A stretch of 64,000 nucleotides of DNA from Betaproteobacteria bacterium (GCA_016709665.1 JADJMI010000018.1:3431-67430), one strand, 5' to 3'. Shown: positions 37,196 to 63,911, numbered from the stretch's first letter. The notes: generated by a model not told the origin, from the letters alone. Numbers and translations: made by a program.

Positions 37196-37219
37196 GCTTC
37201 ATGTGTGTCGTTCCCTTTC

Positions 37220-46841: not shown

Positions 46842-48084
46842 GTGAACGATCCCCGCACCGTCTTCCTCGCCTTCCTCACCAGCGTGGCCATCGGGCTGCT
46901 GGTGGGGCTCGAGCGCGAGCGCCACCCGGAATCCAAGGCGGGCATCCGCACCTTCGCCCTCATCTCGCTCGCCGGCGCCCTGTGCGCCATGCTGGGCGAG
47001 AAGGCCGGCTCGGCGTGGGTGCTGGTGGCGGGCCTCCTCGCCTGCGCCGGCGGCGTGCTGTCGGCCTACCGCGCCGACGGCGACGCGAGCTGGGATTCGG
47101 GCACCACCACCGTCGTCGCGGCCGTGGTCACCTACGGGCTGGGCGCGGCGACGTGGTACGGCTTCGAGGACCTCGCCGTCGCCCTCGCCATCGTCGTCAC
47201 GGTGCTGCTTCACTTCAAGGCGCAGATCGAGGGGTTCTCGGTGCGCCTCACCGCGAAGGACGTCGCGAGCCTGCTGCAGTTCGCGGTGCTCTCGCTCGTC
47301 ATCCTGCCGGTGGTGCCCAACGAGGGCTTCGGCCCCTACGGGGCGTTCAACCCCTACCACCTGTGGCTGATGGTCGTGCTCATCTCGGCGGTGAGCCTGG
47401 CGGGCTACCTCGCCTTCCGGCTCGCGGGCGGGCGGGCGCCGGCCCTGCTGCTGGGCGCGATGGGCGGCCTCGTCTCGAGCACGGCGACCACGCTCGTGTA
47501 CGCGCGGCGCGAAGGGCGGCCCGAGCTGAGAACACGGCGGCGACCGTGATCCTGCTCGCCAACCTCGTGGTGTTCGTGCGCATCGCGGTGCTCACGGCCG
47601 TGGTGGCCCCGGCGCTGCTGCCCGTGCTCGCGCCCGTGCTCGCCGCAGGCCTCGTCGCGACGCTGCCGGTCGCTTGGGTCACGTGGAAGCGCCACCAGGC
47701 CGAGGCGGGCTTCGCGAGCCCGGAACTCACCAACCCGACGGATCTCAAGGTGGCATTGGGCTTCGGCGTCGCCTACGCGGCGATCCTCGTCGCCGGCGCG
47801 TGGCTCAACGACGTGGCGGGCGCGCGCGGCCTGTACGGACTCGCCTTCGCCTCGGGCCTCACGGACGTGGACGCGATCTCGCTCTCGGCCATGCGCCTCT
47901 TCGGCGACGCCTCGATCCCGGCAGGCACCGCGGCCATGGCGATCGTGGTGGCGATCCTCTCCAACGTGATCGTGAAGGCCGGCATCGCGTTCGTGGCGGG
48001 CGGGGCGGCGCTCGGGCGGCGGTGCCTGGCGGGCTTCGGGCGATGGCGGCGGCCCTGGTGGTCTCGGCGCTCGTCGTCGGCTAG
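46842..48084 (+). pseudogene. MgtC/SapB + DUF4010 integral membrane protein, two frame breaks (~47505-47530 and ~48030-48042)
   Basis: VNDPRTVFLAFLTSVAIGLLVGLERERHPESKAGIRTFALISLAG (MgtC-type). The protein continues as ENTAATVILLANLVVFVRIAVL... in the frame of ORF 46982. The tail AMAAALVVSALVVG-stop is in the frame of ORF 47674..48084. Confidence 0.7.
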
Positions 48085-48167
48085 CCGGGCCCCATTCGCG
48101 CCCCCGGGAGGCGGGCCCGTATAATTGACGGTTGCTTCCCGCCCCCCAATCCCACAAGGAAAACCCC

Positions 48168-48826: not shown

Positions 48827-48902
<76 letters not shown>

Positions 48903-48910
48903 CTTTTCGA

Positions 48911-48938
48911 AGGCCAGACATCGCTCTGGCCTTTTTTT
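48911..48938 (+). terminator. Rho-independent terminator after tRNA-Ala
   Basis: AGGCCAGA-CATCGC-TCTGGCCT stem-loop followed by TTTTTT. Confidence 0.8.
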
Positions 48939-49216
48939 CGTCCGGAATTCCCCAATGAATCCGGGCTGTTGGCGAAACGTGCGAAGAGTGGCCACACCCC
49001 CGGTGGCCAACATTCCGGCCGTTTTGCCCTCTACCCCCTCTCCGTTATCTGTTTCTGCGAAGAGCGCTCTTCGCTCCACCCCTGCCATTTCAAGGGGTTA
49101 GCAATTTCGATTTGAGCAAGTTCTTGGTCATCAAGGGCGACCCCTTCAAGGGATCGCATAGTGAGCCTGACTGCTGCCAAACTTTGAAAGCCCATAGCTC
49201 GCGGGTTGAAACTTTT

Positions 49217-50482
49217 GCCTCTCTTGAATTCTGAGTGGGTATTCTGGCGTCATATTCAACATGGTGGCGAGGATCTGAGATGACGGCGAAGGTGTTTGAG
49301 GCGGCGCTGGGGATCGTCGAGCCTTGGTCGGTGAAGTCGGTGGACTTCAAGGAAGCGGCCAAGTTGCTGACGATCCAGATCGACTTCACGCCGGGCAGCC
49401 GTTTTCCGGTGCCCGGCCACGAGGGCGTGCATCCGGTGCACGACACGGTGACCAAGACGTACCGGCACCTGAGCTTCTTCCAACACGAGTGTCACCTGCA
49501 GGTGCGTACGCCGCGGGTGAAGCTGCCCGACGATTCGGTGCGCCTGATCGAGCCGGGCTTCGCCGGTCGACTGTCGGGCTTCACGCTGCTCTTCGAGGCG
49601 ATGATCCTGATGCTGGCACGGCAGATGCCGTTTGCGGCCGTTGCACGCATCGTGGGGGAGTCGGCCTACCGGGTCATGGCGGTGGCAGCGTCGAGCTTGC
49701 CCCGGGCGGCCGACTTGAGTGGCGGAAGGCGCTGGCCATCGACAGACTCGCGGCCCGTGGCCACGACTACATCACCGGCCGCGATGCGCCGAGCGCCGGG
49801 TGCTGTTCGTCACCGAGGGACGCGACGCCGAGACCATCAAGGCGCTGGCCTGCGATCTCGAAGAGCACGGCTGCGCGCGCGAGGCGATCGAGTCGGTGAG
49901 CATCGACATGTCGCCAGCCTTCATCAAGGGCGTGAGCGAGGCATTGCCCAACGCCCAGATCACCTTCGACAAGTTCCACGTCGTCGGCCACGCCAACACG
50001 CCTGGACAAGACGCGCCGCATCGAGCAGCGGACGACAAGTCCTCAGGGATGCGCTGGACGCTGCTGCCAGGACCGTGCCGCCCAAACCTGAGGCCGCCGC
50101 CGACCTCGACGCTTGATCGCCAGGTCACCACCAGCGCACCGCCGAGCTGGGTCTACAAGGAGCAGTTGCGCGCGATCCCGAGCGCAAGCAGATCAATGTC
50201 GGCGCGCCATGCTCAGCATGGGCACCTGATGCGACCCAAGGTCGAGCCGATGAAAGAGGTCGCCAGGATGATCCGCCGTCACATCGAGGGCATCGTCGCC
50301 TGGACCCAGACCCGCCAGACCAACGGCTTCCTTGAAGCCATTAACGGCCTCTTCCACCGCCAAGCGCCGCGCCCGCGGTTTACGCGCCTTCCACCATCAG
50401 GACGGTCTTCCGTCGCCGGCAAGCTCGACTTCCGCGCAATCAACCCTCATGCCCCGCAACCCACTTGAAATTCAACAGAGCC
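49217..50482 (+). mobile_element. ISL3-family insertion sequence (decayed transposase) with imperfect terminal inverted repeats and 8-bp target-site duplication
   Basis: IRL is GCCTCTCTTGAATTCTGAGTGGGT (49217-). The reverse complement of the right end is GGCTCTGTTGAATTTCAAGTGGGT (to 50482), 19 of 24 positions matching. The identical flanking octamer AAACTTTT occurs at 49209-49216 and 50483-50490. Confidence 0.88.
49280..50468 (+). pseudogene. ISL3-family transposase, multiple frame disruptions
   Basis: MTAKVFEAALGIVEPWSVKSVDFKEAAKLLTIQIDF ... YRHLSFFQHECHLQVRTPRVKLPD is an ISL3 N-terminus. Recognisable segments (VLFVTEGRDAETIKAL..SIDMSPAFIKGVSEALPNAQITFDKFHVVGHAN and VEPMKEVARMIRRHIEGIVAWTQTRQTNGFLEAINGLF) are spread over all three frames (ORFs 49235, 49324 and 49719). 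Confidence 0.85.
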
Positions 50483-50530
50483 AAACTTTTGCACTATCCT
50501 GATCAGCATTCCCGCTTTCGGGAGGATGTG

Positions 50531-50738
50531 ATGACACCACGCAGTGCGCAGGCCGAGATCCTGACCATCAGGGAGGTCGCCGGATACCTGAAGGTCACGC
50601 AGCGGACGATCTACAGGCTAGCCGCAGCCAAGAAGATCCCTGCATTCAAGGGTTGGCGGGACGTGGCGCTTCCGGCAGGTAGACATCGACGGCTGGATCG
50701 CAGCCCAATCGAAGAACGCGGAGGGGCAAGCAGGTTGA
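50531..50738 (+). pseudogene. Excisionase-family (HTH_17-like) DNA-binding protein, frame break at ~50648-50655
   Basis: MTPRSAQAEILTIREVAGYLKVTQRTIYRLAAAKKIPAFK is followed, after a 1-nt shift in a G run, by VGGTWRFRQVDIDGWIAAQSKNAEGQAG-stop (TGA 50736-50738). A GGGAGG ribosome-binding site lies upstream of ATG 50531. Confidence 0.65.
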
Positions 50739-53643
50739 TCTCCGCCTACCACGCCAAGTACTACGCCCATGAGCTGACTCGACGTCATGGGGCCGATGGC
50801 GTCGACCGCCTCTCTCTCAGTCGCTGTTTGACGCCAGCGTCGATCTGAACCCGCACCAGATCGAAGCGGCGTTGTTCGCCCTGCGCAATCCGCTGCAGGA
50901 AGGCGTACTGCTTGCCGACGAAGTCGGTGTGGGCAAGACCATCGAAGCATCGCTTGTGGTCTGCCAGTACTGGGCTGAACGCCGCCGCCGTCTGCTGGTG
51001 ATTTGTCCTGCGAGCCTGCGCAAGCAGTGGGCGCAGGAGATGCACGACAAGTTCGCGGTGCCGACCACCGTAGTCGATGCTGTGTCCCTGCGCAAGCAAG
51101 CCGCAGGCGACATCCTCGCCACCTTGCAGCGCATGGTCGGCAAGGCGGTCGTAATCATGTCCTACCAGTTCGCCGTCAAACTGGAAACCGAGCTGCGCGC
51201 AGTGCCGTGGGATGTAGTGGTCATAGACGAAGCGCACAAGCTGCGCAATGCGCACCGCCCCAGCAACCGCACTGGCCAGGCGCTTAAGCGCGCCTTGGCG
51301 GGCCGCAAAAAACTATTGCTAACCGCCACGCCGCTTCAGAACTCGCTTATGGAGCTGTACGGACTGTCCACGCTGCTAGACGAGCACCTTTTCGGTGATG
51401 AAACCGCGTTCCGCAGGCAGTTCATGAGCAGTGCCACGGGCACAGCCGAGTTGCGGGAGCGTCTCGCATCCTTTGCCAAGCGCACGCTTCGACGCGAAGT
51501 GCTCGAGTACATCAAGTACACCGAACGCAAGACGCTGACCCAGCCCTTCGATCCCACTGACGATGAGCAGTCACTTTATGAACGCATCTCGACTTTTTTG
51601 CAGCGTGAGGATTCGTACGCCCTGCCAAAGCGGCAGCGCCACCTCACCGCGCTGATCCTGCGCAAGCTGCTGGCCTCCAGCTCTCACGCTGTGTCAGCAA
51701 CGCTCATCACAATCCGCCAACGGCTGGTACGGCTGCTGGATGGAACAAGCGACGACAACGGCAGCCAACTAGTCGAGCAGCTCATCGCCGAAGACGACTT
51801 GGAGCAGGACTATCTGGAAGAGGAAGCGGCCGAGGATGAAGACGCGCCAACGGACGACGCGCGACCCGCAGAGGACGACGACAAGCCCAATCCCAACGCC
51901 CTCCGTGCCGAAATCGCCGAGCTGACCGCCTTTATTGACGCCGCCCAGGCCCTGCAAACGGACACCAAGGCGCAGGCGCTACTCACGGCGCTCGCCCTCG
52001 GCTTCGGCAAGATGGCCGAGCTGCGCGCCCCTCGCAAGGCCATCATCTTCACGGAGTCCAGGCGTACACAGGAGTACCTGCATCGCTTTCTCTCTGCCAA
52101 CGGCTACATGGGCAGATTAGTGCTTTTTAGCGGCACCAACACCCGCGAAGAGTCCACAGCAATCTATCAACGCTGGCTTGAGGAGTTCAAGGGCACAGAC
52201 CAGTCACAGGTTCACCGCAGGTAGATCGCCGCACGGCCTGATCGATCACTTCCGCCAGGACGACGGCACAGGCGCGGAAATCATGATCGCCACCGAAGCC
52301 GCAGCTGAGGGCGTCAACCTGCAGTTCTGTGCGCTCATCATCAACTACGACCTGCCGTGGAACCCGCAACGCATTGAACAGCGAATTGGTCGTTGTCACC
52401 GTTACGGTCAACGCTACGACGTAGTGGTCATCAACTTCCTCAACACCCGAAACCAGGCCGATCAGCGCGTGTTGGAACTGCTCACTGAGAAGTTCAACCT
52501 GTTCTCCGGCGTATTCGGCGCGTCTGACGAAGTGCTAGGCCGCATCGAAGGCGGGCTGGACTTCGAGAAACGCATCCTGCAGATATACGACACCTGCCGT
52601 CAGCCGGAGCAGATCGAAGCCGCCTTCAACGCACTGCAAGCGGAACTGGAAGAAGTCATTGCCGACCGCATCAAGGACACCCAGACCCAGTTGCTGGAAA
52701 CTTCGACGAGGATGTCCACGACCGCCTCAAGCTACGTCTGGACGAAGCCGAAGCCAGGCTCGACAAGCTTGGCCGATGGTTCTGGGGCGTCACCCGCTAT
52801 GCCCTGAGTGACCGGGCGCGCTTTGACGAGCAGTCCTATGCCTTCTCCCTGATCAGGCCGCCGGAGGCGCTTACCTCTAAGTGCTGCCGGGCCGCTACCA
52901 ACTCATTCGTGGCGCGGCACAGCCTGACATACTGGCTCACGCCTACCGCCTCAGCCATCCGCTGGGCGAGTGGAGCATTGACGCCAGCCTCAACGCCTCT
53001 ACACCGCTCGCCGCACTGAAGCTGACTACGGCAAGCACGGCACGCGCATCTCCGTCGTTGAGAAGTTGCGAGGCAATTCCGGCTGGCTCACGCTGGTACG
53101 TCTGGAAGTAACCGCCTTCGAGACAACCGAGGCGCTGCTGTTCTCGGGCTGCACCGACGATGGTGAGCTACTCGATCAGGAAGCCTGCGAAAAGCTGCTG
53201 ACGATCCCGGCGGCAGGCAAGCCTGTCGCTGCCCACGATGATGCCCAAGCAGCCTTGAAGCCAACAGCCAGCGCCGCGTGGAGGCCACCATTGCCGAAGT
53301 GCTCGAAGCCAACCAGCGCCTGTTCAATGAAGAACGAGACAAGCTGGAGCGCTGGGCCGACGACAAGCTGTTGGCGGCCGAGGAAGCCCTCAAGAACACC
53401 AAGGCGCTCATCGCCCAGCTGAAACGCGATGCCCGGAAGGCTGCCAGCCTGCAAGAGCAGGACGGCATCCAGCGCGAGCTGTCGGAACTGGAGCGCAAGC
53501 AGCGCCGCCTGCGCCAGGACATCTTTGCCGTCGAGGACGAGATCATCGAAAAGCGCGACGCGCTCATCGCCTCACTCCAGCAGCGACTGCACGAGAAGAC
53601 TGACACCCAGACCCTGTTCACCCTGCGCTGGCAGGTGGTGTGA
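50735..53643 (+). pseudogene. SNF2/Rad54-family helicase (defence-type, DrmD-like N-terminus), at least 7 frame disruptions
   Basis: ISAYHAKYYAHELTRRHG ... DLNPHQIEAALFALRNPLQEGVLLADEVGVGKTIEA (motif I), VVIDEAHKLRN (motif II), LLLTATPLQNSLMELY, NLQFCALIINYDLPWNPQRIEQRIGRCHRYGQ (motifs V/VI), and a coiled-coil C-terminus. The pieces lie in ORFs 50465, 50872, 52178, 52881, 53066 and 53278. Breaks occur at ~50809-50820 ((CT)n), 52200-52245 (two), 52696-52700 (A run), ~52875, ~53020 and ~53270. Confidence 0.85.
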
Positions 53644-56600
53644 AGCGCACAACCAACAACGAAGAAATCAAGGCCCGAATCATGACCACGAAACAAAACG
53701 TCAAATTCCAGGAGCTCGTCGCCAAGCTGCGCGAGATTTTTCAGATCGACCGTCCGGAACTGGATTTCGGGATCTACCGCATCCTCAACGCCCGAGCCAG
53801 CGAGATCAACGACTACTTGGAGAACCGGCTGGCAGAGAGAGTTCAGGCGGCACTAGCTTTAGGCAGCGCAGCCACCACCCAGCAACTACAAGCGGAATTG
53901 CAGGAGGCCGAGAAAAGCGCACAGGCCCTGGGCGTCAGCCCCGATGGCGTGCCCAAGGTCCAGGAGCTGCGTGCCCGATTGAAGGATGCCAGCGCAGGCA
54001 GCTTCGAGCACGAAAACGCTGTGTTTTCGCACTTGCTGGCCTTCTTCACCCGCTACTACCAGGACGGGGACTTCATCAGCCAGCGCCGTTACAAGGGCGA
54101 CACCTACGCCATCCCCTACGCGGGCGAAGAGGTGATGCTGCACTGGGCCAACAAGGATCAGTACTACACCAAGAGCGGCGAGAACTTCAGCAACTACAGC
54201 TTCAAGCTCGAAGACGGCCGCACGGTCCACTTCCGCCTCGTGGCCGCCGACACCGCCAAGGATAACCGCAAGGACAACGACAAGGAGCGTCGCTTTGCGC
54301 TAATTGAGCGCAAGACCACCACCCGTATCGACGAGCAGGGCGACGAGGTCGAAGATGAACTGTTGCCGATCGGGGAAGTGGATGGCGCCAACGGAAAAGA
54401 GCTGATCGTCCGCTTTGAGTACAGGCCTGTCGCGAAGGGCACCAAGCAGGAGGCCCTGGTAGCCCAAGCCGTGGTGACTTTGTTGGCCGATCCTGCCGTC
54501 AAGGCCCGCTGGCTCGACTTGGGCATCCGCGCCCCCACCGAGAAGAACCCCCAGCGCACCCTGCTGGAAAAGCACCTGAGCGACTACACCATCAAGAATA
54601 CGGCCGATTACTTCATCCACAAGGATCTGGGTGGCTTCCTGCGCCGGGAACTGGACTTCTACATCAAGAACGAGGCCATGCACCTGGACGATGTCCAGCA
54701 CGCGAACGCGTTTGCCGACATCGAGAAGTCGTTGCGCATGATTCAGTGCCTGAGGAGTATCGCGCTGGAACTAATCGTATTTCTGGCGCAGCTAGAAGAC
54801 TTCCAGAAGAGGCTGTGGCTGAAGAAGAAGTTCGTGGTGTCCAGCCACTTCTGCATCACGCTGGATCGAGTGCCGGAGACGCTTTATCCAGAGATTGTGG
54901 CAAATGAAAAGCAGTGGCAGCAGTGGAAGCTACTCGGCATTTGGGATGCTGATGTGCCAGGTTCGGTGGAAACCTTGAAGGCAGGCCAATTCCGGATGGT
55001 CGACACGAGTCTTTATAGCTACGAATTCAGGCGAAGACTACTTAGCGCGTCAGAGAACTTGGACAGCACCATTGATGGTGTGCTGATTCATGGAGACAAC
55101 TTCCAAGGCCTAGGTCTTCTAGAAAAGCGATACGCACGGGATGTTGACTGCGTCTATATCGACCCACCCTACAACTCTGACGCCAGTGCCATTTTGTACA
55201 AGAACGGCTACAAGTCCTCAAGCTGGGTTTCTTTGATGCAGAGTCGCCTGCAACGAACGCGAGCGCTTCTAAAAGATGCAGGCGTTCTGGTTGCAGCGAT
55301 CGACGATGCTCAACAAAGGGAACTAAGCTTTCTTCTTTCGGAGGTCTTCGACAACAACTCGCTCGGGGTAATAACAGTACGCTCAAACCCTTCAGGGCGT
55401 CCTACTCAGAGCGGGTACGCCGTGTCTCATGAGTACCTACTGTTTGCAGGAAACTCAAGCGAATCGAAGATTCAGCGCTTACCACCAACTCCAGCGCAGA
55501 TGGCTCGGTTTAATGAGGCCGATGAATTAGGGGCGTTCGAGTGGCGGAACCTACGTCGTGAAGGCTCAGACTCCGACAGGAATGAACGCCGGTCCATGTA
55601 CTACCCCATCTATATAACTGGCGAAGCCCTCCGCGTGCCACCGCTTGAGTGGAAAGAAGATACAGAAGAATGGATTCCACTTGAGCCCCCCGGCGCAGAC
55701 GACACCGTAGTGCTTCCCGACAATGAGGATGGAGTACAGAAGCGTTGGCGTTGGGAATGGAGGACCGTCGAGGCCAAGAAATCTCAGCTCGCGGTGAGAA
55801 GGGATCGGTCCGGGAAGAGGTACGTGTACTGCAAGAGACGGCCCAACGAAGACGGCGTGGTGTCTGTGTCGACATGGGCGGACGCGAAGCATTCCGCCAC
55901 TGAGCACGGCACTGCACTGCTGAAGAACCTGTTTGGAAGTAATCCCTTCTCCTATCCAAAGTCGATTCACGCCGTAGTGGACGCGATCTATGTCGCAGGC
56001 GCTGTAGATCCCAAATCACTGACATTCGACTACTTCGCGGGTTCTGGAACAACCGCACATGCAGTCATAAACCTGAACAGGAGAGACAAAGGGCAGCGGC
56101 GATATGTTTTGGTCGAGCAAGGGGAATACTTTGACCGGGTCCTGAAGCCGCGAATTCAGAAGGCCGTCTACTCGGAGCGCTGGGAGCAAGGGAAACCAAC
56201 GGCTCCTGAGACTGGCCTCTCCCACTGCTTCAAGGTCCTCAAGCTCGAAGGCTATGAGGACACGCTGAACAACCTGCAACTGCGCCGCACGGCCGGACAA
56301 GACAATCTGTTCGCCAAGCTGCCACAGCAGGCCAAAGACGACTACCTGCTGCATTACATGTTGGATGTGGAAAGCCGGGGCTCGCTCTTGTCGGTGGAGG
56401 ACTTCAAGAAGCCCTTCGACTACGCGCTGAACGTCGCTGTCGATTCAGCGGGGGCCTTTGAGCCGCGCAACGTCGATCTAGTGGAGACCTTCAACTACCT
56501 AATCGGCCTTCGTGTGAAGCACATCGATGCCCAACCCGAGCGCGGCTTTGTCACCGTCACGGGCGTGATGCCCAGCGGTGAGTCCTGCCTCGTGCTTTGG

Positions 56601-56825
56601 CGCGACTGCGAGGTGCTGGACTACGAAGGTGTCGCCGGGCTTTGCGACAAGCTAGCCATTAACCCGGCGGACAACGAATTCGACGTGGTCTACATCAACG
56701 GCGACCACAACATTCCGACCGTGCTGACGCAGACTGCCGAGGAAGGCGGTGCCACCCGCGTGCTCAAGTTGCGGCAGATCGAACCGGAGTTTCTGTCACA
56801 CATGTTCTCGGTAGAGGACATCTGA
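53640..56825 (+). CDS. Type III Mod-like (beta-class N6-adenine/N4-cytosine) DNA methyltransferase with a long N-terminal extension
   Basis: Motif IV VYIDPPYNS (~55161) precedes motif I DYFAGSGTTAHAV (~56030), which is the beta-class order. The N-terminal ~330 aa (ELDFGIYRILNARASEINDYL...) are unassigned. The start is GTG 53640 (overlapping the SNF2 stop, GTGA) or ATG 53682. The reading frame is intact. Confidence 0.85.
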   Translation: MKRTTNNEEIKARIMTTKQNVKFQELVAKLREIFQIDRPELDFGIYRILNARASEINDYLENRLAERVQAALALGSAATTQQLQAELQEAEKSAQALGVSPDGVPKVQELRARLKDASAGSFEHENAVFSHLLAFFTRYYQDGDFISQRRYKGDTYAIPYAGEEVMLHWANKDQYYTKSGENFSNYSFKLEDGRTVHFRLVAADTAKDNRKDNDKERRFALIERKTTTRIDEQGDEVEDELLPIGEVDGANGKELIVRFEYRPVAKGTKQEALVAQAVVTLLADPAVKARWLDLGIRAPTEKNPQRTLLEKHLSDYTIKNTADYFIHKDLGGFLRRELDFYIKNEAMHLDDVQHANAFADIEKSLRMIQCLRSIALELIVFLAQLEDFQKRLWLKKKFVVSSHFCITLDRVPETLYPEIVANEKQWQQWKLLGIWDADVPGSVETLKAGQFRMVDTSLYSYEFRRRLLSASENLDSTIDGVLIHGDNFQGLGLLEKRYARDVDCVYIDPPYNSDASAILYKNGYKSSSWVSLMQSRLQRTRALLKDAGVLVAAIDDAQQRELSFLLSEVFDNNSLGVITVRSNPSGRPTQSGYAVSHEYLLFAGNSSESKIQRLPPTPAQMARFNEADELGAFEWRNLRREGSDSDRNERRSMYYPIYITGEALRVPPLEWKEDTEEWIPLEPPGADDTVVLPDNEDGVQKRWRWEWRTVEAKKSQLAVRRDRSGKRYVYCKRRPNEDGVVSVSTWADAKHSATEHGTALLKNLFGSNPFSYPKSIHAVVDAIYVAGAVDPKSLTFDYFAGSGTTAHAVINLNRRDKGQRRYVLVEQGEYFDRVLKPRIQKAVYSERWEQGKPTAPETGLSHCFKVLKLEGYEDTLNNLQLRRTAGQDNLFAKLPQQAKDDYLLHYMLDVESRGSLLSVEDFKKPFDYALNVAVDSAGAFEPRNVDLVETFNYLIGLRVKHIDAQPERGFVTVTGVMPSGESCLVLWRDCEVLDYEGVAGLCDKLAINPADNEFDVVYINGDHNIPTVLTQTAEEGGATRVLKLRQIEPEFLSHMFSVEDI

Positions 56826-59701
56826 TGGCACGCCCACGAAAGACCACAGCCGCCTCTGTCGGCACTGCTGGCTCAAGAAGCGGTGGCAAGAAGCGCACCT
56901 TCCACCAGGAACTGGTACTTAATCGCTGGATGTTGGGCTTCTTCAGGGGGGGCAGTCTCAGCGCCTTGAAGCTGCGGTTGGGCGATGATCGCCACGAGGG
57001 GATCGACGAGGACGGACAAACAAAGTTCTTTCATGAGCTGACGCGCAACCTTTTCGAAGTGGATCGTGTATCTGAGGCCGATCTGCGTCGCTACGACCTG
57101 AACATCGTTGGCCATTGGCAGGCCATCACTTCCCAGCGCAACAAGCTGGAAGGCCATGAACTGCAGATGAAGTACTTTCAGTACCTCTCACTGCTGTTCA
57201 CCGAGATCTACCTGGACTGGTACTTCAACAAGCGCCAGGACCTGCTGGATGGTCTTAACGAGGAGTTGGTGCGCTACAGCGCCGAAACTGGCGCAGAGCC
57301 CTTCCGCGACTTTGATGCGGACGATCTGAACAAGATCGCCTTCTGGAACGCCACGGGCAGCGGCAAGACGCTTCTGCTGCACGTCAACATTTGGCAGTAC
57401 TTGCATTATTTCCAGGCTGGCCGAGGCGACCACTACCCGAGCAAGATCATCCTGCTCACGCCGAACGAGGGCTTGTCGCGCCAGCATCTGGAGGAGCTGC
57501 ACTTGTCGGGCTTCGGCTTCGCCCAGTTCTTCAACAAGGCGCAGACCCCTGCGCGTGGGACTATCGAGATCATCGACATCAACAAGCTGGGCGATGAGAT
57601 GGGTGACAAGACAGTCGCCGTGGATGCGTTTGAGGGAAACAACCTGGTGCTGGTGGACGAAGGCCACCGTGGTACTGGCACGGCGGCAGGCGCGTGGATG
57701 AGTCGCCGTGATGCGCTGGTGCGCGGCGGCTTTGCCTTCGAGTACTCGGCGACCTTTGGGCAGGCCGTGGCCAAAGGATTGACCGTGTCGGCGGCGGAAG
57801 AAGACATCCAGAAGAAGCGCGCCAAGATGCTGTTCGACACGACCAGCCTGAAAAAGCTGGACGACGGCCAGCTTGCCCAGCTTGCGCTAACTCCCGAGGA
57901 CAGGCGCCGCGCGCGGGTCACCGCTACTCGCGAGATCTACGCCAAGTGCATCTTGTTCGACTACTCGTACAAGTTCTTCTACGAGGACGGCTACGGCAAG
58001 GAATCGCTGATCCTCAACATGAACGGAGAGGCCTATGAGCCGGCGGAGAACGCCCGCAAGTATTTCACTGCCTGTCTGCTGGCCTTCTATCAGCAGCTTT
58101 GGCTGTGGAGCACCCACCGCGAAAAGCTGACCGACTTCAACATTGAAAAGCCGCTGTGGGTGTTCGTGGGTAACACAGTGTCAGGTGAGGAGTCGGACAT
58201 TCTGGAGGTGGTGAACTTTCTCGCCGACTTCCTGAACAACGATGCGCAGATTAAGACCTGGCTGGCCGATCTGATCGCCGACCGGACGCAGATTGTGGAC
58301 GCCAAGGGCAACAATATCTTCCAGGGTCGATTCACACCCCTCATGGGATTCGTGGATCAGGTGGACGCGCTGTACGCCGACATCCTGGTGCGCGTGTTCA
58401 ATGCCCAGGCGAAGCAACGGCTTAAACTGGTCAACATCAAGAGTAGCAAGGGAGAGCTGGCGCTGCGGGTGGGCGACGCGGAACCCTTCGGCCTCATCAA
58501 CATTGGCGACGACGCAGGCTTCTTCGGGATGGCCGAGGACTCCGACGCCTTCGACAGCGAGCGCGATGACTTCGGCGGCGCGTTGTTCGGAACGCTGAAC
58601 AACAAGGACAGCCAGCTCAACGTGCTGATCGGGTCGCGCAAGTTCACGGAAGGGTGGAGCAGTTGGCGCGTGTCCACTATGGGCCTCCTGAACATGGGCC
58701 AGGGCGAGGGCTCGCAGATCATTCAGCTGTTCGGGCGCGGCGTGCGCCTAAAGGGCAAGGGCTTTTCGCTTAAGCGCACAACGCCGCAGGAACGACCCAA
58801 GGGTGTGCATCTGGACAAGCTGGAGGCGCTGAACATTTTCGGCGTGCGCGCCAGCTACATGGCTGCATTCAAGGACTATTTGCGCGAAGAAGGCATCACG
58901 CCCAGCGACGAAATTCTGGAGCTCGATTTCCCCACACGACCCAACCTGCCCGCGGGCAAGCTCAAGACGCTGGCGCTGAAGGACGGCTACAAGGACAACC
59001 AGAAGATGGGCTTCAAGCGCACCCACTTCCCGTGGTTGTACGAAATACCCGCAAAGTTCCAAGGAAAGATCAAAGCGCCACACGTGGTGCTTGACCTATA
59101 CCCCCGCGTCGAGGCGCTGGCCACGAACGACAAAGGCTCGGCCAGCACGGCCGAAGCAAGGCACAAGGGCAAGTTGAACGCGAGCGTGTTTGCTGTGTTC
59201 GACTGGGATTGCATCTATCTGGCGTTGCAGGACTACAAACTGCAACGGAGCTGGAGCAACCTGCGGCTAGACCGACAGAAACTGATCGACTTCTGCGCAG
59301 GTGCACCTGACTGGTACACGCTGTTCATCCCTGCGGTGGAACTGGCCGTGAACACGTTCAGCGACATTCGCAAGCAGGAGGACATCCTGATCCGACTGCT
59401 GACCGACTACACCGACCGCTTTTACAAGGCGCTGAAGACCGGCTACGAGGGGCAATTCTACGACGTCACGCGCATCGATGAAGACCACGGCTCGATGCTC
59501 AAGCTCTACCAGTTCGAGATCGAAAACAGCGATGACGGGCTGGAGTATCAGAAGAAGCTGGAAGTGCTGAAGAAGCTGGTGGCCGACGGCAAGATCGGTG
59601 AGGCCAGCAAATGGAACGCTCCTCACATGGTTGCTGTTAGTTTCGACCGACACCTTTACTACCCGCTGATGGCGCTGGAAGACAAGGACGCGGTGCCTTG
59701 A
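56825..59701 (+). CDS. Type III Res-like SF2 helicase/ATPase (no recognisable nuclease domain)
   Basis: Walker A FWNATGSGKTLLLH, motif II LVLVDEGHRGT, FEYSATF, KFTEGWSSWRV and QLFGRGVRLKG (Res-type motifs V/VI). The start ATG shares one nt with the Mod stop (TGATG). The frame is intact over 958 aa. Confidence 0.8.
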   Translation: MARPRKTTAASVGTAGSRSGGKKRTFHQELVLNRWMLGFFRGGSLSALKLRLGDDRHEGIDEDGQTKFFHELTRNLFEVDRVSEADLRRYDLNIVGHWQAITSQRNKLEGHELQMKYFQYLSLLFTEIYLDWYFNKRQDLLDGLNEELVRYSAETGAEPFRDFDADDLNKIAFWNATGSGKTLLLHVNIWQYLHYFQAGRGDHYPSKIILLTPNEGLSRQHLEELHLSGFGFAQFFNKAQTPARGTIEIIDINKLGDEMGDKTVAVDAFEGNNLVLVDEGHRGTGTAAGAWMSRRDALVRGGFAFEYSATFGQAVAKGLTVSAAEEDIQKKRAKMLFDTTSLKKLDDGQLAQLALTPEDRRRARVTATREIYAKCILFDYSYKFFYEDGYGKESLILNMNGEAYEPAENARKYFTACLLAFYQQLWLWSTHREKLTDFNIEKPLWVFVGNTVSGEESDILEVVNFLADFLNNDAQIKTWLADLIADRTQIVDAKGNNIFQGRFTPLMGFVDQVDALYADILVRVFNAQAKQRLKLVNIKSSKGELALRVGDAEPFGLINIGDDAGFFGMAEDSDAFDSERDDFGGALFGTLNNKDSQLNVLIGSRKFTEGWSSWRVSTMGLLNMGQGEGSQIIQLFGRGVRLKGKGFSLKRTTPQERPKGVHLDKLEALNIFGVRASYMAAFKDYLREEGITPSDEILELDFPTRPNLPAGKLKTLALKDGYKDNQKMGFKRTHFPWLYEIPAKFQGKIKAPHVVLDLYPRVEALATNDKGSASTAEARHKGKLNASVFAVFDWDCIYLALQDYKLQRSWSNLRLDRQKLIDFCAGAPDWYTLFIPAVELAVNTFSDIRKQEDILIRLLTDYTDRFYKALKTGYEGQFYDVTRIDEDHGSMLKLYQFEIENSDDGLEYQKKLEVLKKLVADGKIGEASKWNAPHMVAVSFDRHLYYPLMALEDKDAVP

Positions 59702-59703
59702 AG

Positions 59704-60216
59704 ATGCGCCCACTGGCCTTCGATGCGCCAAGCGAATGGGAATTCGTTCGGGATCTGGAATCGTTCTACAACTCGCCCGCTGGCAAAGTCGCCATCGGGT
59801 CGCGCAGCCTGTACCTGCTGCGCAATGCGGATCGTGAGGAGAAGGGTCTGGGATTTGCGCTGGCTGGCAACTTTTACCCGGACTTCTTGCTGTGGCTGGT
59901 GGACGATGCCACCGGCAAGCAATGGTTGACATTCGTCGATCCCAAGGGCCTGCGCAACCTTGATCTCTCACACCCCAAGCTTGGGCTCTACAAGGAGGTG
60001 AAGTCACTGGAGACGACGCTGGCGGCTCAGGCCAAGCCCGGTGAGCCACCCCTGGTCTTGAACGCCTTCGTACTGTCCCCCACGAAGTTCTCCGACCTGC
60101 TCAATGTGGGCGATCCAACAAAGAAGGCCGAGTTGGAGGAGCGACATGTGCTGTTCATGGAAGACGGCGGAGACGCCTACCTGAAGAAGCTGTTTGCAAA
60201 GGTGGCAGCCGCATGA
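59704..60216 (+). CDS. Small PD-(D/E)xK-like nuclease candidate (split-off Res endonuclease domain?)
   Basis: FYPDFLLWLVDD ... QWLTFVDPKG fits the Y-PDF ... (D/E)xKG pattern of Type III Res and restriction-endonuclease-fold domains. The ORF begins 3-6 nt around the Res stop (TTG 59698 or ATG 59704). Confidence 0.5.
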   Translation: MRPLAFDAPSEWEFVRDLESFYNSPAGKVAIGSRSLYLLRNADREEKGLGFALAGNFYPDFLLWLVDDATGKQWLTFVDPKGLRNLDLSHPKLGLYKEVKSLETTLAAQAKPGEPPLVLNAFVLSPTKFSDLLNVGDPTKKAELEERHVLFMEDGGDAYLKKLFAKVAAA

Positions 60217-60351: not shown

Positions 60352-61434
60352 TCAGCTGACTGCGGCGACAGGGGCGTGCCGAGTCAGTCGCTCCAGCGCA
60401 AAACTTAGGGCGCGATCGTCGAACAACCGATCCTTGCGCTCTGCCGCGCCCGGTCCACCGCACCAATGGCGCAGGCCTTCTCTGACCGCCGTCACGTTGG
60501 GCGCAACGCCCTCGTTCGCGAGGAGCCAATCAACCGTCGCCAACAATTCCATGCCGAAAGGCGACTCGAATCCATCAATCAGCGCTGCCGTGTACTCCAG
60601 CGCCTCAAGATAAGGCTTAGCTTCCGTCTTGAGATAGGTTTGCAAGAAGCCCTTCCGCTCGTCGTCAAACCAAATCACGTCGAGTGGGTCTGCGTCGCTG
60701 ATCCGCTTCTCGCAGTGAAGGTAGCTTCCGTCAAGGTTATTAAGCAGATGAGTTAGGCGGTTGGCGTATGGACCGTACTTGTTTGGTATGAACCGTAGGT
60801 CCAAGGGGTTGTCCGCCGGGGAAAAGCGCTCGATTGCGCGCTCCAAGAACCACGCGAGCGTCTGAATCTCCAGCAAGCTGCACTCCATGCCAAGTACCCA
60901 ATAGCGTCGAACCAGTTCGGCGATCAGGGCGCGGGCCGGTGTCAACTTCTCGACGCCGCTTCGCTTGGCCACGTTTTGGTACTGCTTTGTCGGCTCGAAG
61001 ACCAGAATGTCGATGTCGAGGTCGCCCAGTGCGGCCTCGATCTGCGCTCGGACGTCGGCCCATTCGAGGCCTCCATTCCCCGATCCTAGGGGCGGGATGG
61101 CGACCGACTTCACTTCATTGGCAAGCAGGACACGACGCAGATCCTGGAGCCCTTCGACGATCCACTCCATCCGGGATGGAGCACGCCAATGTTGCTTGGT
61201 GGGGAAGTTGATAATCCAGCGCGGACCGTTCAGCTCGTGGACTTCGGTCACAAAGACCTTCCCGGTCTGTATCTGGCTGGCCTTACAGGCAGCCGAATAG
61301 AGGCGGAAATTTTCCGCGAACCGTTCCTTGAACATAAGGGCAATGCCCTTGCCCATCACACCGACGGTATTGACGGTGTTGACCAGCGCCTCAGCCCTAG
61401 CTTCTAGCAAGTTGCCTTGTCTGAGCGTGATCAT
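60352..61434 (-). CDS. darG: DarG antitoxin (macrodomain ADP-ribosylglycohydrolase plus C-terminal DarT-binding domain)
   Basis: [39 protein letters not shown] ... [12 protein letters not shown] ... [11 protein letters not shown] is a macrodomain signature. The ATG shares one nt with the darT stop (TGATG). Confidence 0.88.
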
Positions 61435-62084
61435 CAGAAATACCACTTTGGCAGAACTAGAACTTCCAGCTTCATGTCTTCTCTCTGGATCTGGGCTTCA
61501 AGCGCCGATTTTACCGCTTCGGTATAGCAGACTACCGCGATCAGTCCGGTGATGGGTAGCTGTCGGTACACGAGGGCCTCGGCCTGATAGCGTTCGATTT
61601 GCTCGGGGTCATCTGGATTGCGCTGAAAATTACGAGTCTGGAGCAACGGCCAGTCAATCTTGCCCAGGTCATCAAGCTCGTTGGAAAAGTTGGCCAACGA
61701 TGTATAGGCATGTCGATCCGTGAATACGAAATCGAGCTCCATCGCTTTAACCTTCGGCAGGCTGGAGACGAGAATGCAGATCTCTTCATTGCGACGTCTT
61801 GGGACTTCGCCGCGTCCGGTATAGATGTTGTACATCATGGGCGAAAACGGAGTGAAGTAGAACGGAACGTAGTCGGCCAGTGTGCCTCCCGGTGCCACCA
61901 GGACATTACGATGCGTCCGTCGACTGATCAAGTCAGCGTTACCAATTGCGACGTAGTTCGGGTCTCGCACTGGAGAGTTCGCACAGTGCAAGCCATTGCG
62001 CATTATCCATGGAAGATTATCGCGATGGACGATGCGCCAGATCAGCGCCTTCTCCGGGTTCAGGTTGGGGTAGTTGTTAGCCAT
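61434..62084 (-). CDS. darT: DarT (DUF4433) ssDNA thymidine ADP-ribosyltransferase toxin
   Basis: [34 protein letters not shown] ... [17 protein letters not shown] ... FVFTDRHA ... ERYQAEALV is the DUF4433 pattern. It lies immediately upstream of the macrodomain gene. Confidence 0.88.
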
Positions 62085-62189: not shown

Positions 62190-62513
62190 CTAGTCCAGAA
62201 CCACCAGAAATTCGGTGGCCAGCGCGGTCGGCCGAACATCGCGGACATTCCGGGTAAGCTCAACTAGTCCGTATCCCTCCATCATTCTCAACGTCCGCGA
62301 CAGGTTCGACACCTGCCGGCCTGTCAGCGCGGCCAACTCGGTCAGGGTCTTCGGCTGTGCATCCCGAATGACCCGCAACAACGCCCGGTTCTCCTCGGAT
62401 AGCACAGCTGCCATCGTCGCTGTCGATGGAAACCAGACTGTCGGGAGCCGCTTCGCCCCGCCATTGGTCTGGCCATTACTCGTTCCGCGTATGCCGACGA
62501 CACAACGCTTCAT
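62190..62513 (-). CDS. Winged-helix (MarR/ArsR-like) transcriptional regulator
   Basis: LSEENRALLRVIRDAQPKTLTELAALTGRQVSNLSRTLRMMEGYGLVEL forms the HTH core. The true start may be the internal Met (MAAVLSE). Confidence 0.65.
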   Translation of the reverse strand: MKRCVVGIRGTSNGQTNGGAKRLPTVWFPSTATMAAVLSEENRALLRVIRDAQPKTLTELAALTGRQVSNLSRTLRMMEGYGLVELTRNVRDVRPTALATEFLVVLD

Positions 62514-62604
62514 TTCCTGCGCTTCGGGGTCATGAGTGGAAGCGTAAGTTTATCACTGTGGCACAAGCATAGCGAGACTCCGTGTCTGCCAAGACATTCG
62601 ACCG

Positions 62605-63086
62605 TCACAGGAGAATGCGAGCCTCAGCATTGCGGCGAGCAACGAGGCCGGGGAGCACTCTGCCACCACCGTAGACCCAGCGCCGCAATTCCGATGCTGC
62701 ATCCCCCGGGCTTGCTGGATGAGCCTGCGTCGGAGTGTTGATGTCTGTAGACGTCCCGCGCCGAGATTGAATGTGAAGTCGACGATGGCTGCGAGCCGGC
62801 CCTCGGGCTCTGTGGCGAGCGCCGGGCAGTACCGCAGGGTCGCGTTAAGGGCGGAGAGCAGGTCGTGCGCCAGGTAGTCCTCCGCTTCCGCCTCGGTGAT
62901 CGGTGGGTGCTGCGGGTCGCAGAGATGACCGTAGCCGATCGTCCAGCAGTAGCCCGCGGGGCAGATGGGTGCGCCCTCCCCGGATCCATCCTTTGGCACC
63001 CGGTGGAATCCCTCGAACCGCTTTGCAAGTTCACGGCGGCCTGCGGCACCGCAATCACGGCCGCACCCGGTCAAACACGCGCCCAA
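62605..63086 (-). pseudogene. Phage endolysin (GH24 lysozyme-like), frame break at ~62700-62715
   Basis: LAKRFEGFHRV ... WTIGYGH ... AIVDFTFNLGAGRLQTSTLRRRL. The expected tail AASELRRWVYGGGRVLPGLVARRNAEARILL-stop (TGA 62605-62607) lies in another frame, after a C/G homopolymer run. Confidence 0.75.
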
Positions 63087-63174
63087 GGAACCAGAAATTG
63101 CAGCACCCGGCCCAGAGCCTGATCGGCCTCGGTCCAGGCCTGCAACACGGCGGCACTCCAGCCGAGCCCGGCGG

Positions 63175-63528
63175 TCATGGCACCCACAAAGCCGCCGTCT
63201 TGGCCGCGCAGTAAAGGGCCATGAACCAGTAGGTGATCACAGGCCGCACGCTGACTGAGAGCGCATCGGCCCAGCGCACACCGGTCTTCTCCCCTTGGGT
63301 GCGGACCGCATCACGCAGGGCCTCGATGGCACCGGTGTTCCAGGCGGCATCGGCCCCCGCGCCAATTTCGGCCATCTTCTGGGCGCCACGCAGGCGGTCG
63401 AACTCCAACGCCTTGTCCTGCATCGCGAGTTCGTGGCCACGCTCGCTCTTTCGGTCGAACCACTTGAGAACTTCAGGTGCCAGGCGAAACACGCCACCCA
63501 GCAGACCACCCAACAGGGTCTCGATCAT
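63175..63528 (-). CDS. Phage membrane protein, holin-like
   Basis: MIETLLGGLLGGVFRLAPEVLKWFDRK... with a hydrophobic C-terminus ITYWFMALYCAAKTAALWVP. The ATGA overlap with the upstream ORF and the position just before the endolysin support the call. A 34-aa continuation (MTAGLGWSAAVLQAW...) lies in another frame. Confidence 0.5.
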   Translation of the reverse strand: MIETLLGGLLGGVFRLAPEVLKWFDRKSERGHELAMQDKALEFDRLRGAQKMAEIGAGADAAWNTGAIEALRDAVRTQGEKTGVRWADALSVSVRPVITYWFMALYCAAKTAALWVP

Positions 63529-63827
63529 TGCGAGCCTCCCATGATCTTGAACTTGATCGCTGCACCCAAGAGCGCGACCACCAGGAGGCTGGTTGTCGCG
63601 ACGCGGATCACGGTGCGCCAGGCGGTGCGGCGGGCATCGCGCCAGGCTTCGAGCAGATCGCGCAGCTCCCGGATGTCTTCGGCCGCATGGGGGCCCTCGA
63701 GGCCGAGGTGAACGAGCGCGCGCTCGGCGCCACGTTCGGCGGCGCGATCGAGCAGGTCCTCGAAATCCTCCTTGCGGACGGTGAGGACGTTGTCTTCGGG
63801 GGACGGTGTGATGTGTTCGGCGTTCAT
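63525..63827 (-). CDS. Phage lysis-cassette membrane protein (C-terminal TM)
   Basis: A 100-aa protein with an acidic/helical N-terminus and TM segment VIRVATTSLLVVALLGAAI. It is translationally coupled (ATGA) to the next ORF. Confidence 0.5.
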   Translation of the reverse strand: MNAEHITPSPEDNVLTVRKEDFEDLLDRAAERGAERALVHLGLEGPHAAEDIRELRDLLEAWRDARRTAWRTVIRVATTSLLVVALLGAAIKFKIMGGSQ

Positions 63828-63911
63828 TGGGTCTCCAAAGGCGAACCCGCCACGAGGGGCTGACTCTCGGGCGGGTTCCGGGTTGAATCACAGCTATGTC
63901 CTACGGGTGGA

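What the first reader, a model, noticed from the sequence alone, without database searches (positions are those of the whole stretch)
49217..53643. Decay is concentrated in the front of the defence cassette: IS in the promoter region, HTH and SNF2 shattered, while Mod-Res-nuclease-DarTG (8.4 kb) are frame-perfect
Seen: the ISL3 right end (50482) lies 48 nt upstream of the HTH start codon. The element therefore separates the cassette from whatever lay upstream. The HTH has one frame break, the SNF2 gene at least seven in 2.9 kb, and the transposase at least four. The next 8.4 kb (53640-62084) contains none.

Inference: random sequencing error at the SNF2 density would be expected to break Mod and Res many times. 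Either the SNF2 arm is genuinely pseudogenised, leaving a methylase/Res core behind, or this 4.4-kb stretch has locally poor consensus (low coverage, strain mixture). If it is real, it is a natural experiment on whether the SNF2 partner is dispensable.
Basis: partly seen in the sequence, partly recalled or inferred. Interest (0 to 1): 0.6.

Follow-up and report, generated by a model that had tools for sequence, protein, structure and literature searches.

The report
Apparent gene decay, probably assembly error
The many frame breaks in front of this prophage-borne restriction/DarTG defence cluster are most likely leftover sequencing-consensus errors around a real insertion-sequence insertion, not gene decay, so it is not a natural test of whether the SNF2 helicase is dispensable.

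Summary
An ISL3 element (49217-50482, 8-bp target duplication AAACTTTT) ends 48 nt before the HTH start. The HTH has one frame break and the SNF2 gene has seven. The transposase is shattered.

The claimed contrast does not hold. Res carries a 1-bp deletion at 59695, and the "172-aa nuclease" ORF is simply its C-terminal part. Frame-breaking indels also hit chromosomal genes (13115; 47500-47527) and the neighbouring phage lysis region (from 62595).

Seven independent wastewater and activated-sludge metagenomes hold the same cassette at about 99% identity. In them there is no IS, and HTH (68 aa), SNF2 (970 aa), Mod (1061 aa) and Res (1130 aa) are intact. No indexed run holds the window's version.

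The pattern does not fit neutral decay:
- Window-specific changes are almost all small deletions.
- Flawless stretches alternate with noisy ones. The IS has 468 identical bases, then about 44 deletions in 730 bp.
- Substitutions are few and mostly synonymous, so they look like real allelic patches.

This fits unpolished long-read or mixed-strain consensus (about 0.75). The IS insertion itself looks real.

The cassette is an ordinary, widespread HTH, DrmD-like SNF2 and Type III-like Mod/Res operon plus DarTG, at a prophage end beside tRNA-Ala.

The parts
46842..48124 (+). Chromosomal MgtC/DUF4010 gene, broken in the window. It lacks 4 bases at 47500-47527 and has further indels near 48037-48141.
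   Evidence: Four metagenomes insert CG, G and G at 47500, 47513 and 47527. A 414-aa orthologue aligns in two frames. The Pfam DUF4010 domain is split between the two ORFs.
48827..48902 (+). tRNA-Ala(CGC), at the boundary between the chromosome (about 69% GC) and the prophage end (about 58-62% GC).
   Evidence: ARAGORN and the composition profile. A related genome, L093, has no prophage after the homologous genes.
48903..49208 (.). Non-coding stretch between the tRNA and the defence operon. It presumably holds the operon's native promoter. A terminator-like hairpin lies at 48909-48934.
   Evidence: In metagenome contigs this stretch is joined directly to 50483. The terminator scan is. No sigma-70 consensus site was found.
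49217..50482 (+). ISL3-family insertion sequence (1266 bp), flanked by the 8-bp target duplication AAACTTTT at 49209-49216 and 50483-50490.
   Evidence: Pfam HTH_Tnp_ISL3, Zn_ribbon_ISL3 and DDE_Tnp_ISL3. The empty-site joint is seen in 4 runs. An intact 1314-bp copy with an uninterrupted transposase reading frame (426 codons stop-to-stop, about 411 aa from the ATG) is in L092.
49684..50412 (+). Noisy 3' two-thirds of the IS. Against an intact copy it shows about 44 small deletions (53 bases) and 23 substitutions, and the transposase switches frame at least 8 times. The first 468 bp and the last 70 bp are identical to the intact copy.
50531..50738 (+). HTH gene (excisionase/MAD1-like, 68 aa when intact), broken by one extra G at 50650.
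   Evidence: Pfam HTH_17. NCBIfam MADS1 scores 79.6 bits against a cut-off of 80, and TIGR01764 also matches. The indel is seen.
50735..53643 (+). SNF2 helicase gene (DrmD-like, 970 aa when intact). The window has an extra CT at 50810 and 1-bp deletions at 52202, 52237, 52697, 52877, 53023 and 53244.
   Evidence: Pfam SNF2-rel_dom and Helicase_C. PADLOC DrmD PDLC02619. NCBIfam DISARM_DrmD_b scores 632 bits, below the cut-off of 950. The indels are seen. A 970-aa gene is called in L081-L083.
53640..56825 (+). Mod, a 1061-aa N6/N4 DNA methyltransferase of a Type III-like R-M system. It is intact. A patch of 11 SNPs at 54089-54239 is mostly synonymous.
   Evidence: Pfam PF01555, PADLOC MTase_III PDLC03646, SNP classification.
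56825..60216 (+). Res, a 1130-aa helicase-nuclease when intact. In the window a 1-bp deletion at 59695 splits it into 958-aa and 172-aa ORFs. A largely synonymous patch of 7 SNPs lies just upstream at 59632-59669.
   Evidence: Both ORFs match one PADLOC profile, REase_III PDLC03654, at positions 6-964 and 968-1125. The two parts are contiguous and in frame in 68 of 68 orthologues. All four runs and L081 insert a C. The gene is called as 1130 aa.
60352..61446 (-). DarG antitoxin (macro domain), intact.
   Evidence: Pfam Macro, PADLOC DarG, NCBIfam NF048014 at 432 bits against a cut-off of 250.
61434..62084 (-). DarT toxin, intact. Its protein is identical to that on 18 metagenome contigs.
   Evidence: Pfam DarT, NCBIfam NF048013 at 253 bits against a cut-off of 150, the look-up of encoding contigs.
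62190..64000 (-). Prophage genes next to the cassette: an HTH_20 regulator (62190-62513), then endolysin, a 158-aa protein and DUF6127. The window has further frame-breaking indels here (62595, 62702, 62966, 62986, 63032 and others).
   Evidence: Gene calls for L081 and L082, PHROGs tail, virion and endolysin hits, the difference list, Pfam.

Best explanation
The window carries a prophage end integrated beside tRNA-Ala in an uncultured betaproteobacterium from wastewater or activated sludge. Usitatibacteraceae are its nearest named relatives. The prophage end encodes a translationally coupled operon of HTH, DrmD-like SNF2 helicase, Type III-like Mod and Res, with a convergent DarT-DarG toxin-antitoxin pair.

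An ISL3 element has really transposed into the leader of the operon, 48 nt before the HTH start. The evidence is a clean 8-bp target duplication and the empty site seen elsewhere.

The 'decay' is most likely not biological. This covers the one HTH break, the seven SNF2 breaks, the one Res break, the dozens in the transposase, and those in the neighbouring chromosomal and phage genes. It looks like residual, deletion-biased consensus error of a long-read or hybrid (meta)genome assembly. Such error survives where short-read polishing or deep coverage was not available: a repeat (the IS), a strain-specific junction, and patches where this strain's allele differs from the majority allele in the sample.

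Shown: the positions and kinds of all differences, the intactness of the cassette elsewhere, and the non-uniform, substitution-poor spectrum. Inferred: the sequencing history of the window.
For: 1. Seven independent runs (X1, X2, X3, X5, X8, X9, X10) carry contigs about 99% identical to the cassette. At the listed break sites that each run's contigs cover, every informative contig shows the intact state. No run covers a site with the window's state. Assembled contigs L081-L084 call SNF2 at 970 aa, Mod at 1061 aa and Res at 1130 aa.
2. No indexed run holds the window's version or the IS-HTH junction. The highest word shares are 0.88, 0.80 and 0.50.
3. The spectrum is wrong for neutral decay. 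In the IS 3' part there are about 44 deletion events, no net insertion and 23 substitutions in 730 bp, next to 468 bp with no difference at all. In HTH plus SNF2 there are 8 indels against 14 substitutions, and 1.3 kb (50811-52142) has essentially no difference, with only one mixed-strain site at 50929. Neutral bacterial decay should give several-fold more substitutions than indels (my own knowledge of bacterial mutation spectra).
4. The substitutions that do exist fall at third codon positions in 22 of 34 cases (p = 2e-4) and are mostly synonymous: Mod 8 of 11, Res 9 of 12. They are therefore selected allelic variation, not decay. Of the 7 indels from 51441 to the end of DarT, three (52202, 52237, 52877) lie inside such SNP patches, and a fourth (59695) lies 26 bp downstream of the 59632-59669 patch. 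This is where mixed pile-ups or failed polishing are expected.
5. The deletions are not slippage events. In the IS, 85% of the 1-bp deletions lie outside homopolymers. In the cassette they are mostly contractions of short runs, GG to G or AA to A.
6. Frameshifts are not specific to the cassette. They occur in the chromosome at 13115 (a CG deletion; adding it back restores a 679-codon reading frame), in MgtC/DUF4010, and in two of the full-length copies of the tandem NHL-repeat paralogue array (homology only). Long unique stretches are clean: 36-42 kb and most of 1-20 kb.
7. Residual indels in repeats after short-read polishing, and frameshifts in long-read (meta)genomes, are documented (abstracts of PMC8812927, 10.1101/2021.08.23.457338 and PMC9262707).
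Against: The window's own reads could not be found, so there is no direct read-level proof.

Most of the chromosome in the window is of good quality, so the explanation needs strongly uneven local quality.

Several SNF2 indels (52697, 53023, 53244, 50650, 50810) are solitary and not next to any SNP patch or repeat.

The IS insertion in the leader would give a natural reason for relaxed selection on the operon.

Natural loss of the SNF2 partner does occur in other genomes. SNF2 is absent from its usual place upstream of Mod in 9 of 73 assessable orthologous loci, although one of these, L080, has an SNF2 homologue downstream. Remnants are present in 2 more.
Confidence: 0.75

Rival explanations
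1. Real pseudogenisation. The ISL3 insertion cut the operon off from its promoter. Selection on HTH and SNF2, and partly on Res, was relaxed, and the genes accumulated real frameshift mutations. The strain now has a decaying defence cassette and a dead IS copy.
For: The IS insertion is real and sits in the leader. Indels per substitution are higher in HTH/SNF2 (8:14) than in Mod-Res-DarTG (1:24). Bacterial pseudogenes are known to be deletion-biased. SNF2-less and SNF2-remnant cassettes exist elsewhere, for example L017 and L057.
Against: Eight or more indels arose with virtually no unselected substitutions, and 1.3 kb of SNF2 is identical to the intact allele. The IS shows about 44 deletions in 730 bp next to 468 identical bases, which no uniform neutral process would produce. 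Unrelated chromosomal genes 1-2 kb on the other side of the IS carry the same kind of damage. Mod, DarT and DarG are intact, yet Res is broken. No other sample holds any of the broken alleles.
Confidence: 0.13
2. A mixture. The assembly collapses two or more co-existing variants of the prophage end, one with the IS and one without, carrying different alleles. A few frameshifts are real minority alleles and the rest are consensus artefacts of the mixed pile-up.
For: The window is a mosaic of stretches identical to the common allele and short, mostly synonymous SNP patches from another allele. Metagenome contigs break at the same places, for example around 52340-52370 and 59602-59620, which shows strain variation there. 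Indels lie in or next to the SNP patches.
Against: It cannot be told apart from the best explanation without reads. It adds real frameshift alleles for which there is no positive evidence in seven runs.
Confidence: 0.1

Closest known systems
Type III restriction-modification systems (Mod + Res, EcoP15I type)
   Same: A methyltransferase with an N6_N4_Mtase domain is followed, with overlapping stop and start codons, by a large SF2-helicase Res with a C-terminal nuclease part. PADLOC files both genes under Type III (MTase_III PDLC03646, REase_III PDLC03654).
   Different: Mod (1061 aa) and Res (1130 aa) are much larger than the classical enzymes (my own knowledge: about 650 and 970 aa). The operon also carries an SNF2 helicase and a small HTH gene upstream. 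Many orthologous loci carry extra cargo between Mod and Res. No NCBIfam model names Mod or Res.
DISARM class 1 (DrmD SNF2 helicase with DrmMI, DrmA, DrmB, DrmC)
   Same: The SNF2 protein is most similar to DrmD models (PADLOC PDLC02619, E = 2e-114; NCBIfam NF038318, E = 1e-189). It sits directly next to an adenine-type methyltransferase.
   Different: It scores below the NCBIfam equivalog cut-off (632 against 950 bits). No hit to a DrmA, DrmB (DUF1998) or DrmC (PLD) model was found in the cassette. Its partner is a Type III-like Res.
DarTG toxin-antitoxin / anti-phage system
   Same: DarT and DarG both score above the NCBIfam equivalog cut-offs. They are adjacent and overlapping, with the toxin gene first.
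   Different: Nothing unusual. The pair sits convergent to the R-M operon at a prophage end.
ISL3-family insertion sequences
   Same: The element has the three ISL3 transposase domains, an 8-bp target duplication and terminal inverted repeats beginning GGCTCT/GCCTCT. An intact sister copy exists in L092.
   Different: In the window's copy the 3' two-thirds are riddled with small deletions.
Residual indel errors of long-read or hybrid assemblies in repeats and strain-variable regions
   Same: The errors are deletion-biased, frame-breaking and clustered in a repeat (the IS) and in strain-variable patches, while well-covered unique sequence is clean. Errors in repeats are reported to survive short-read polishing (PMC8812927 abstract), and frameshifts impair gene calls in long-read metagenomes (10.1101/2021.08.23.457338 abstract).
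   Different: The sequencing platform of the window is unknown. Many of the deletions lie outside homopolymers, whereas homopolymer-length errors are the most commonly cited class.

Membership tests
Type III restriction-modification | Mod subunit with an N6/N4 amino-methyltransferase domain | tested here: met
   Pfam PF01555, E = 7e-20. PADLOC MTase_III PDLC03646, 1163 bits.
Type III restriction-modification | Res subunit: one polypeptide with an SF2 helicase/ATPase and a C-terminal endonuclease part | tested here: inconclusive
   The PADLOC REase_III profile is covered at 6-964 by the 958-aa ORF and at 968-1125 by the 172-aa ORF. Res is one 1130-aa ORF in L081-L084 and in 68 of 68 orthologues. 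In the window it is split by a 1-bp deletion at 59695. The catalytic nuclease motif was not examined.
Type III restriction-modification | mod precedes res in one operon | tested here: met
   The Mod stop and Res start overlap at 56823-56827. The order is the same in the orthologous loci, although about a third have cargo genes in between.
Type III restriction-modification | ATP-dependent cleavage that needs two inversely oriented unmethylated sites, with hemimethylation by Mod | not testable with these tools
   This is a biochemical property.
DISARM class 1 | DrmD SNF2 helicase at equivalog level | tested here: not met
   NCBIfam NF038318 scores 632.6 bits against a cut-off of 950. NF038317 scores 282.8 against 610.
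DISARM class 1 | DrmA helicase, DrmB (DUF1998) and DrmC (PLD) present | tested here: not met
   Mod, Res and the other non-SNF2 cassette proteins have no PADLOC or Pfam hit to DrmA, DrmB or DrmC. The SNF2 pieces give only a much weaker secondary hit to a DrmA model, far below their DrmD hit.
MADS (methylation-associated defence system) | MAD1 HTH together with the other mad genes | tested here: not met
   The HTH scores 79.6 bits against the MAD1 cut-off of 80. It is the only protein with a mad hit in PADLOC.
DarTG | DarT ADP-ribosyltransferase and DarG macrodomain antitoxin, adjacent | tested here: met
   NF048013 scores 252.6 bits (cut-off 150) and NF048014 scores 431.9 bits (cut-off 250). 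The genes overlap at 61434-61446.
ISL3 insertion sequence | DDE_Tnp_ISL3 transposase, terminal inverted repeats and an 8-bp target duplication | tested here: met
   The transposase reading frame is not intact in the window.
Genuine pseudogene (neutral decay) | The frameshifts are present in the organism's DNA (independent reads) | not testable with these tools
   No indexed run holds the window's alleles or the IS-HTH junction. Seven runs hold only intact alleles.
Genuine pseudogene (neutral decay) | Substitutions accumulate along with indels, spread evenly over the inactivated sequence | tested here: not met
   SNF2/HTH has 8 indels and 14 substitutions, half of them synonymous and clustered in patches, and 1.3 kb has essentially none. 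The IS has about 44 deletions and 23 substitutions in 730 bp beside 468 identical bases.

The most novel reading that the evidence does not exclude
The frameshifts are real. After an ISL3 insertion silenced a prophage-borne SNF2 and Type III-like R-M operon, a local process that produces almost only 1-bp deletions shattered the IS, HTH, SNF2 and neighbouring genes within a few kilobases. It left hardly any substitutions, and Mod and DarTG stayed intact. That would point to an unknown localised frameshift-mutagenic process. It would also give a natural SNF2-null variant of this defence system.
Probability: 0.1. Interest if true: 0.55.

Novelty: not a real feature. Interest (0 to 1): 0.12.

Why it matters
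The main value is as a caution. Frameshift 'decay' patterns in a single assembly, especially next to an IS and inside a strain-variable prophage, should not be read as biology without reads or an independent assembly. Here public metagenomes supplied the independent copies and showed an intact cassette.

Two results are useful in themselves. The '172-aa nuclease' is the C-terminal part of Res. The HTH, SNF2, Mod and Res cluster with DarTG is a common prophage-end cargo in wastewater betaproteobacteria.

Examples are L001, L047, L059, L079, L017 and L057.

Tried and rejected
- Homopolymer-only error model: rejected. Most deletions lie in runs of 1-2 bases.
- Neutral pseudogene decay: rejected as the main cause, on the indel-to-substitution ratio and the alternation of perfect and noisy stretches.
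- Substitutions as sequencing noise: rejected. Their third-position and synonymous bias shows they are real alleles.
- Search for the window's own source or reads: three exact-protein look-ups found nothing. Word searches with the broken SNF2 part and with the IS-HTH junction found no run that holds them.
- Plasmid collection: only distant ISL3 and helicase hits, no orthologous cassette.
- Promoter scan of the leader and IS end: no sigma-70 consensus site, so nothing can be said about the lost native promoter or an outward IS promoter.
- DarT-driven mutagenesis as a cause of the deletions: considered because T is over-represented among deleted bases in the IS (19 of 53 against 16%). The cassette deletions show no T bias, and DarG is intact. 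Not supported.
- MADS or DISARM membership: rejected.


Full report
**What is in the window.** The first 48.8 kb is a chromosome of about 69% GC. A tRNA-Ala(CGC) lies at 48827-48902, and after it the GC content drops to about 58-62%.

The finding's region holds an ISL3-family insertion sequence followed by a tightly packed operon:
- a small HTH gene (50531-50738)
- an SNF2 helicase (50735-53643)
- a 1061-aa methyltransferase, Mod (53640-56825)
- Res (from 56825)

A convergent DarT/DarG pair lies at 60352-62084. Successive operon genes overlap by a few bases (HTH/SNF2, SNF2/Mod, Mod/Res), which indicates one translationally coupled operon.

Near-identical metagenome contigs continue past DarT into an HTH_20 regulator, an endolysin, and tail and virion genes. 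The cassette is therefore cargo at the end of a prophage integrated beside the tRNA. A related genome has no prophage at that place. The closest named relatives of a chromosomal marker protein are Usitatibacteraceae and unclassified Betaproteobacteria. The sequence is found in activated-sludge, wastewater and groundwater metagenomes.

**Checking the observation.** The IS spans 49217-50482 and is flanked by the 8-bp duplication AAACTTTT. Contigs from four metagenomes join 49208 directly to 50483, which is the empty site. The insertion is therefore a real transposition event, and it lies 48 nt before the HTH start codon.

Seven runs carry contigs about 99% identical to the cassette. Against them the window differs by an extra G at 50650 (HTH), an extra CT at 50810, and 1-bp deletions at 52202, 52237, 52697, 52877, 53023 and 53244 (SNF2). 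Undoing these eight changes gives a 68-aa HTH and one 970-aa SNF2 reading frame. That matches the 970-aa gene called on contigs L081-L083.

The transposase is worse than stated. An ungapped comparison with a Burkholderia ISL3 transposase shows at least eight frame switches. An intact sister copy from a JGI metagenome (L092, uninterrupted transposase reading frame) differs from the window's copy by 23 substitutions and 53 deleted bases in about 44 events. All of these lie in 49684-50412. The first 468 bp and the last 70 bp are identical.

The stretch 53640-62084 is not frame-perfect. The 958-aa 'Res' and the 172-aa 'nuclease' ORFs match adjacent parts of a single PADLOC REase_III profile. They are contiguous and in the same frame in all 68 assessable orthologous loci, and they form one 1130-aa gene on L081-L084. 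All four runs laid on that stretch, and L081, have one more C at 59695.

Frame-breaking indels also occur outside the cassette:
- The chromosomal MgtC/DUF4010 gene lacks four bases at 47500-47527 and is disturbed again near 48040.
- A minus-strand gene lacks a CG at 13115. Adding it back restores a 679-codon reading frame.
- Two of the full-length tandem NHL-repeat paralogues switch frame at about 30112 and about 32030. This rests on homology only.
- The endolysin region has several indels from 62595 onward.

In contrast, 36-42 kb and most of 1-20 kb show no indel against contigs of about 99%-identical strains.

**Why this is probably not gene decay.**
1. At the listed break sites that each run's contigs cover, every informative contig shows the intact state. 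No run holds the window's alleles or the IS-HTH junction.
2. The spectrum is wrong. Neutral decay in bacteria yields several substitutions per indel (my own knowledge). Here HTH plus SNF2 show 8 indels and 14 substitutions, and 1.3 kb (50811-52142) has essentially no difference. The IS has about 44 deletions and 23 substitutions in 730 bp, right beside 468 identical bases.
3. The substitutions that exist are not decay. In the cassette 22 of 34 fall on third codon positions (p = 2e-4), and most are synonymous. They are short patches of a second, functional allele. Three of the seven indels between 51441 and the end of DarT lie inside such patches, and a fourth lies 26 bp from one.
4. The indels are almost all deletions, usually of one base. 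They mostly lie outside homopolymers or in runs of two. That is not the signature of replication slippage.
5. The same kind of damage affects unrelated chromosomal genes on the other side of the IS.

Perfect stretches alternating with deletion-ridden stretches, concentrated in a repeat, at a strain-specific junction and in allele-variable patches, is what incompletely polished long-read or hybrid assemblies look like. The literature describes errors that persist in repeats after short-read polishing, and frameshifted gene calls in long-read metagenomes (abstracts of PMC8812927, 10.1101/2021.08.23.457338 and PMC9262707).

I put this explanation at about 0.75, real pseudogenisation at about 0.13, and a mixed picture at about 0.10. 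The weak points are these. The source reads could not be located. Several SNF2 indels are solitary. An IS in the leader would be a plausible trigger for relaxed selection.

**What the cassette is.** Mod and Res fall under Type III R-M in PADLOC, but they are unusually long and have no NCBIfam name. The SNF2 protein is DrmD-like but scores below the equivalog cut-off. The Mod, Res and other non-SNF2 proteins match no DrmA, DrmB or DrmC model, so this is not DISARM. The HTH scores 79.6 bits against the MAD1 cut-off of 80, but no other MADS gene is present. DarT and DarG are clear members of their families.

The gene order is widespread. At least 502 genome loci encode a Mod relative, and I examined the best 80. 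SNF2 is full-length directly upstream of Mod in 62. It is absent from that position in 9, one of which (L080) has an SNF2 homologue downstream. It is reduced to remnants in 2 (L017, L057), and 7 loci are cut by contig ends. About a third of the loci carry extra genes between Mod and Res, for example AAA_21 plus DUF4276, or RhuM.

By analogy with Type III enzymes, the likely mechanism is that Mod methylates host sites and Res translocates on and cuts unmodified DNA. The SNF2 partner would be an accessory translocase or sensor. This is inference only.

**Verdict.** The IS insertion and the cassette are real but ordinary. The 'decay gradient' is partly mis-described and most likely an assembly artefact. 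Its interest is low. The practical lessons are to demand read support for such patterns and to use the SNF2-less orthologous loci for the dispensability question.

Noticed in passing
window 56825-60216: The '172-aa nuclease' ORF (59698-60216) is the C-terminal part of Res. The window lacks one C at 59695, just after a patch of 7 mostly synonymous SNPs (59632-59669).
   Followed up: yes
window 62100-64000; L081 1-9900: The defence cassette sits at the end of a prophage. An HTH_20 regulator, endolysin, DUF6127, tail proteins and a 1208-aa virion protein follow DarT. DarT's exact protein occurs on 18 metagenome contigs with the same neighbours.
   Followed up: yes
window 46842-48124: The chromosomal MgtC/DUF4010 gene is frameshifted. 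The window lacks CG, G and G at 47500, 47513 and 47527, and there are more indels near 48037-48141. Orthologues are a single 414-aa gene.
   Followed up: yes
window 11941-13975 (- strand): A 2-bp (CG) deletion at 13115, relative to four metagenomes, splits a gene. Adding it back gives one 679-codon reading frame.
   Followed up: yes
window 25500-40740: Tandem array of large NHL-repeat paralogues of about 1100 aa. C-terminal-domain relatives also occur at 0.5-1.3, 3.6-4.5, 7.4-8.1, 10.1-10.9, 11.9-12.7 and 14.0-15.6 kb. Two copies switch frame, at about 30112 and about 32019-32037. This was not checked against reads.
   Followed up: partly
window 49684-50412: Among the 53 bases deleted from the IS relative to an intact copy, T on the + strand is over-represented (19 of 53 against 16% of the sequence). 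85% of the single-base deletions are outside homopolymers. Unexplained.
   Followed up: partly
window 54089-54239, 57953-58041, 59632-59669: Short patches of mostly synonymous SNPs in Mod and Res against the common metagenome allele. They look like recombination between functional alleles of the cassette.
   Followed up: partly
L001-L080 (orthologous loci): The slot between Mod and Res is variable. About a third of the loci carry 1-1.9 kb of extra genes there, for example AAA_21 ATPase plus DUF4276 in L006 and a RhuM-family protein in L002. Nine loci lack SNF2 upstream of Mod, and two (L017, L057) keep only remnants.
   Followed up: partly
window 48929-49208: The non-coding stretch between the tRNA and the operon is only about 88% identical to the metagenome contigs. 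The cassette itself is about 99% identical and the chromosome about 99%. This boundary region therefore has a different history from its flanks.
   Followed up: no
protein database hits to SNF2: Most of the closest database relatives of the SNF2 protein are truncated (400-840 aa against 970 aa), including some on long contigs. I did not examine whether this reflects contig ends, gene-calling or frequent breakage.
   Followed up: no
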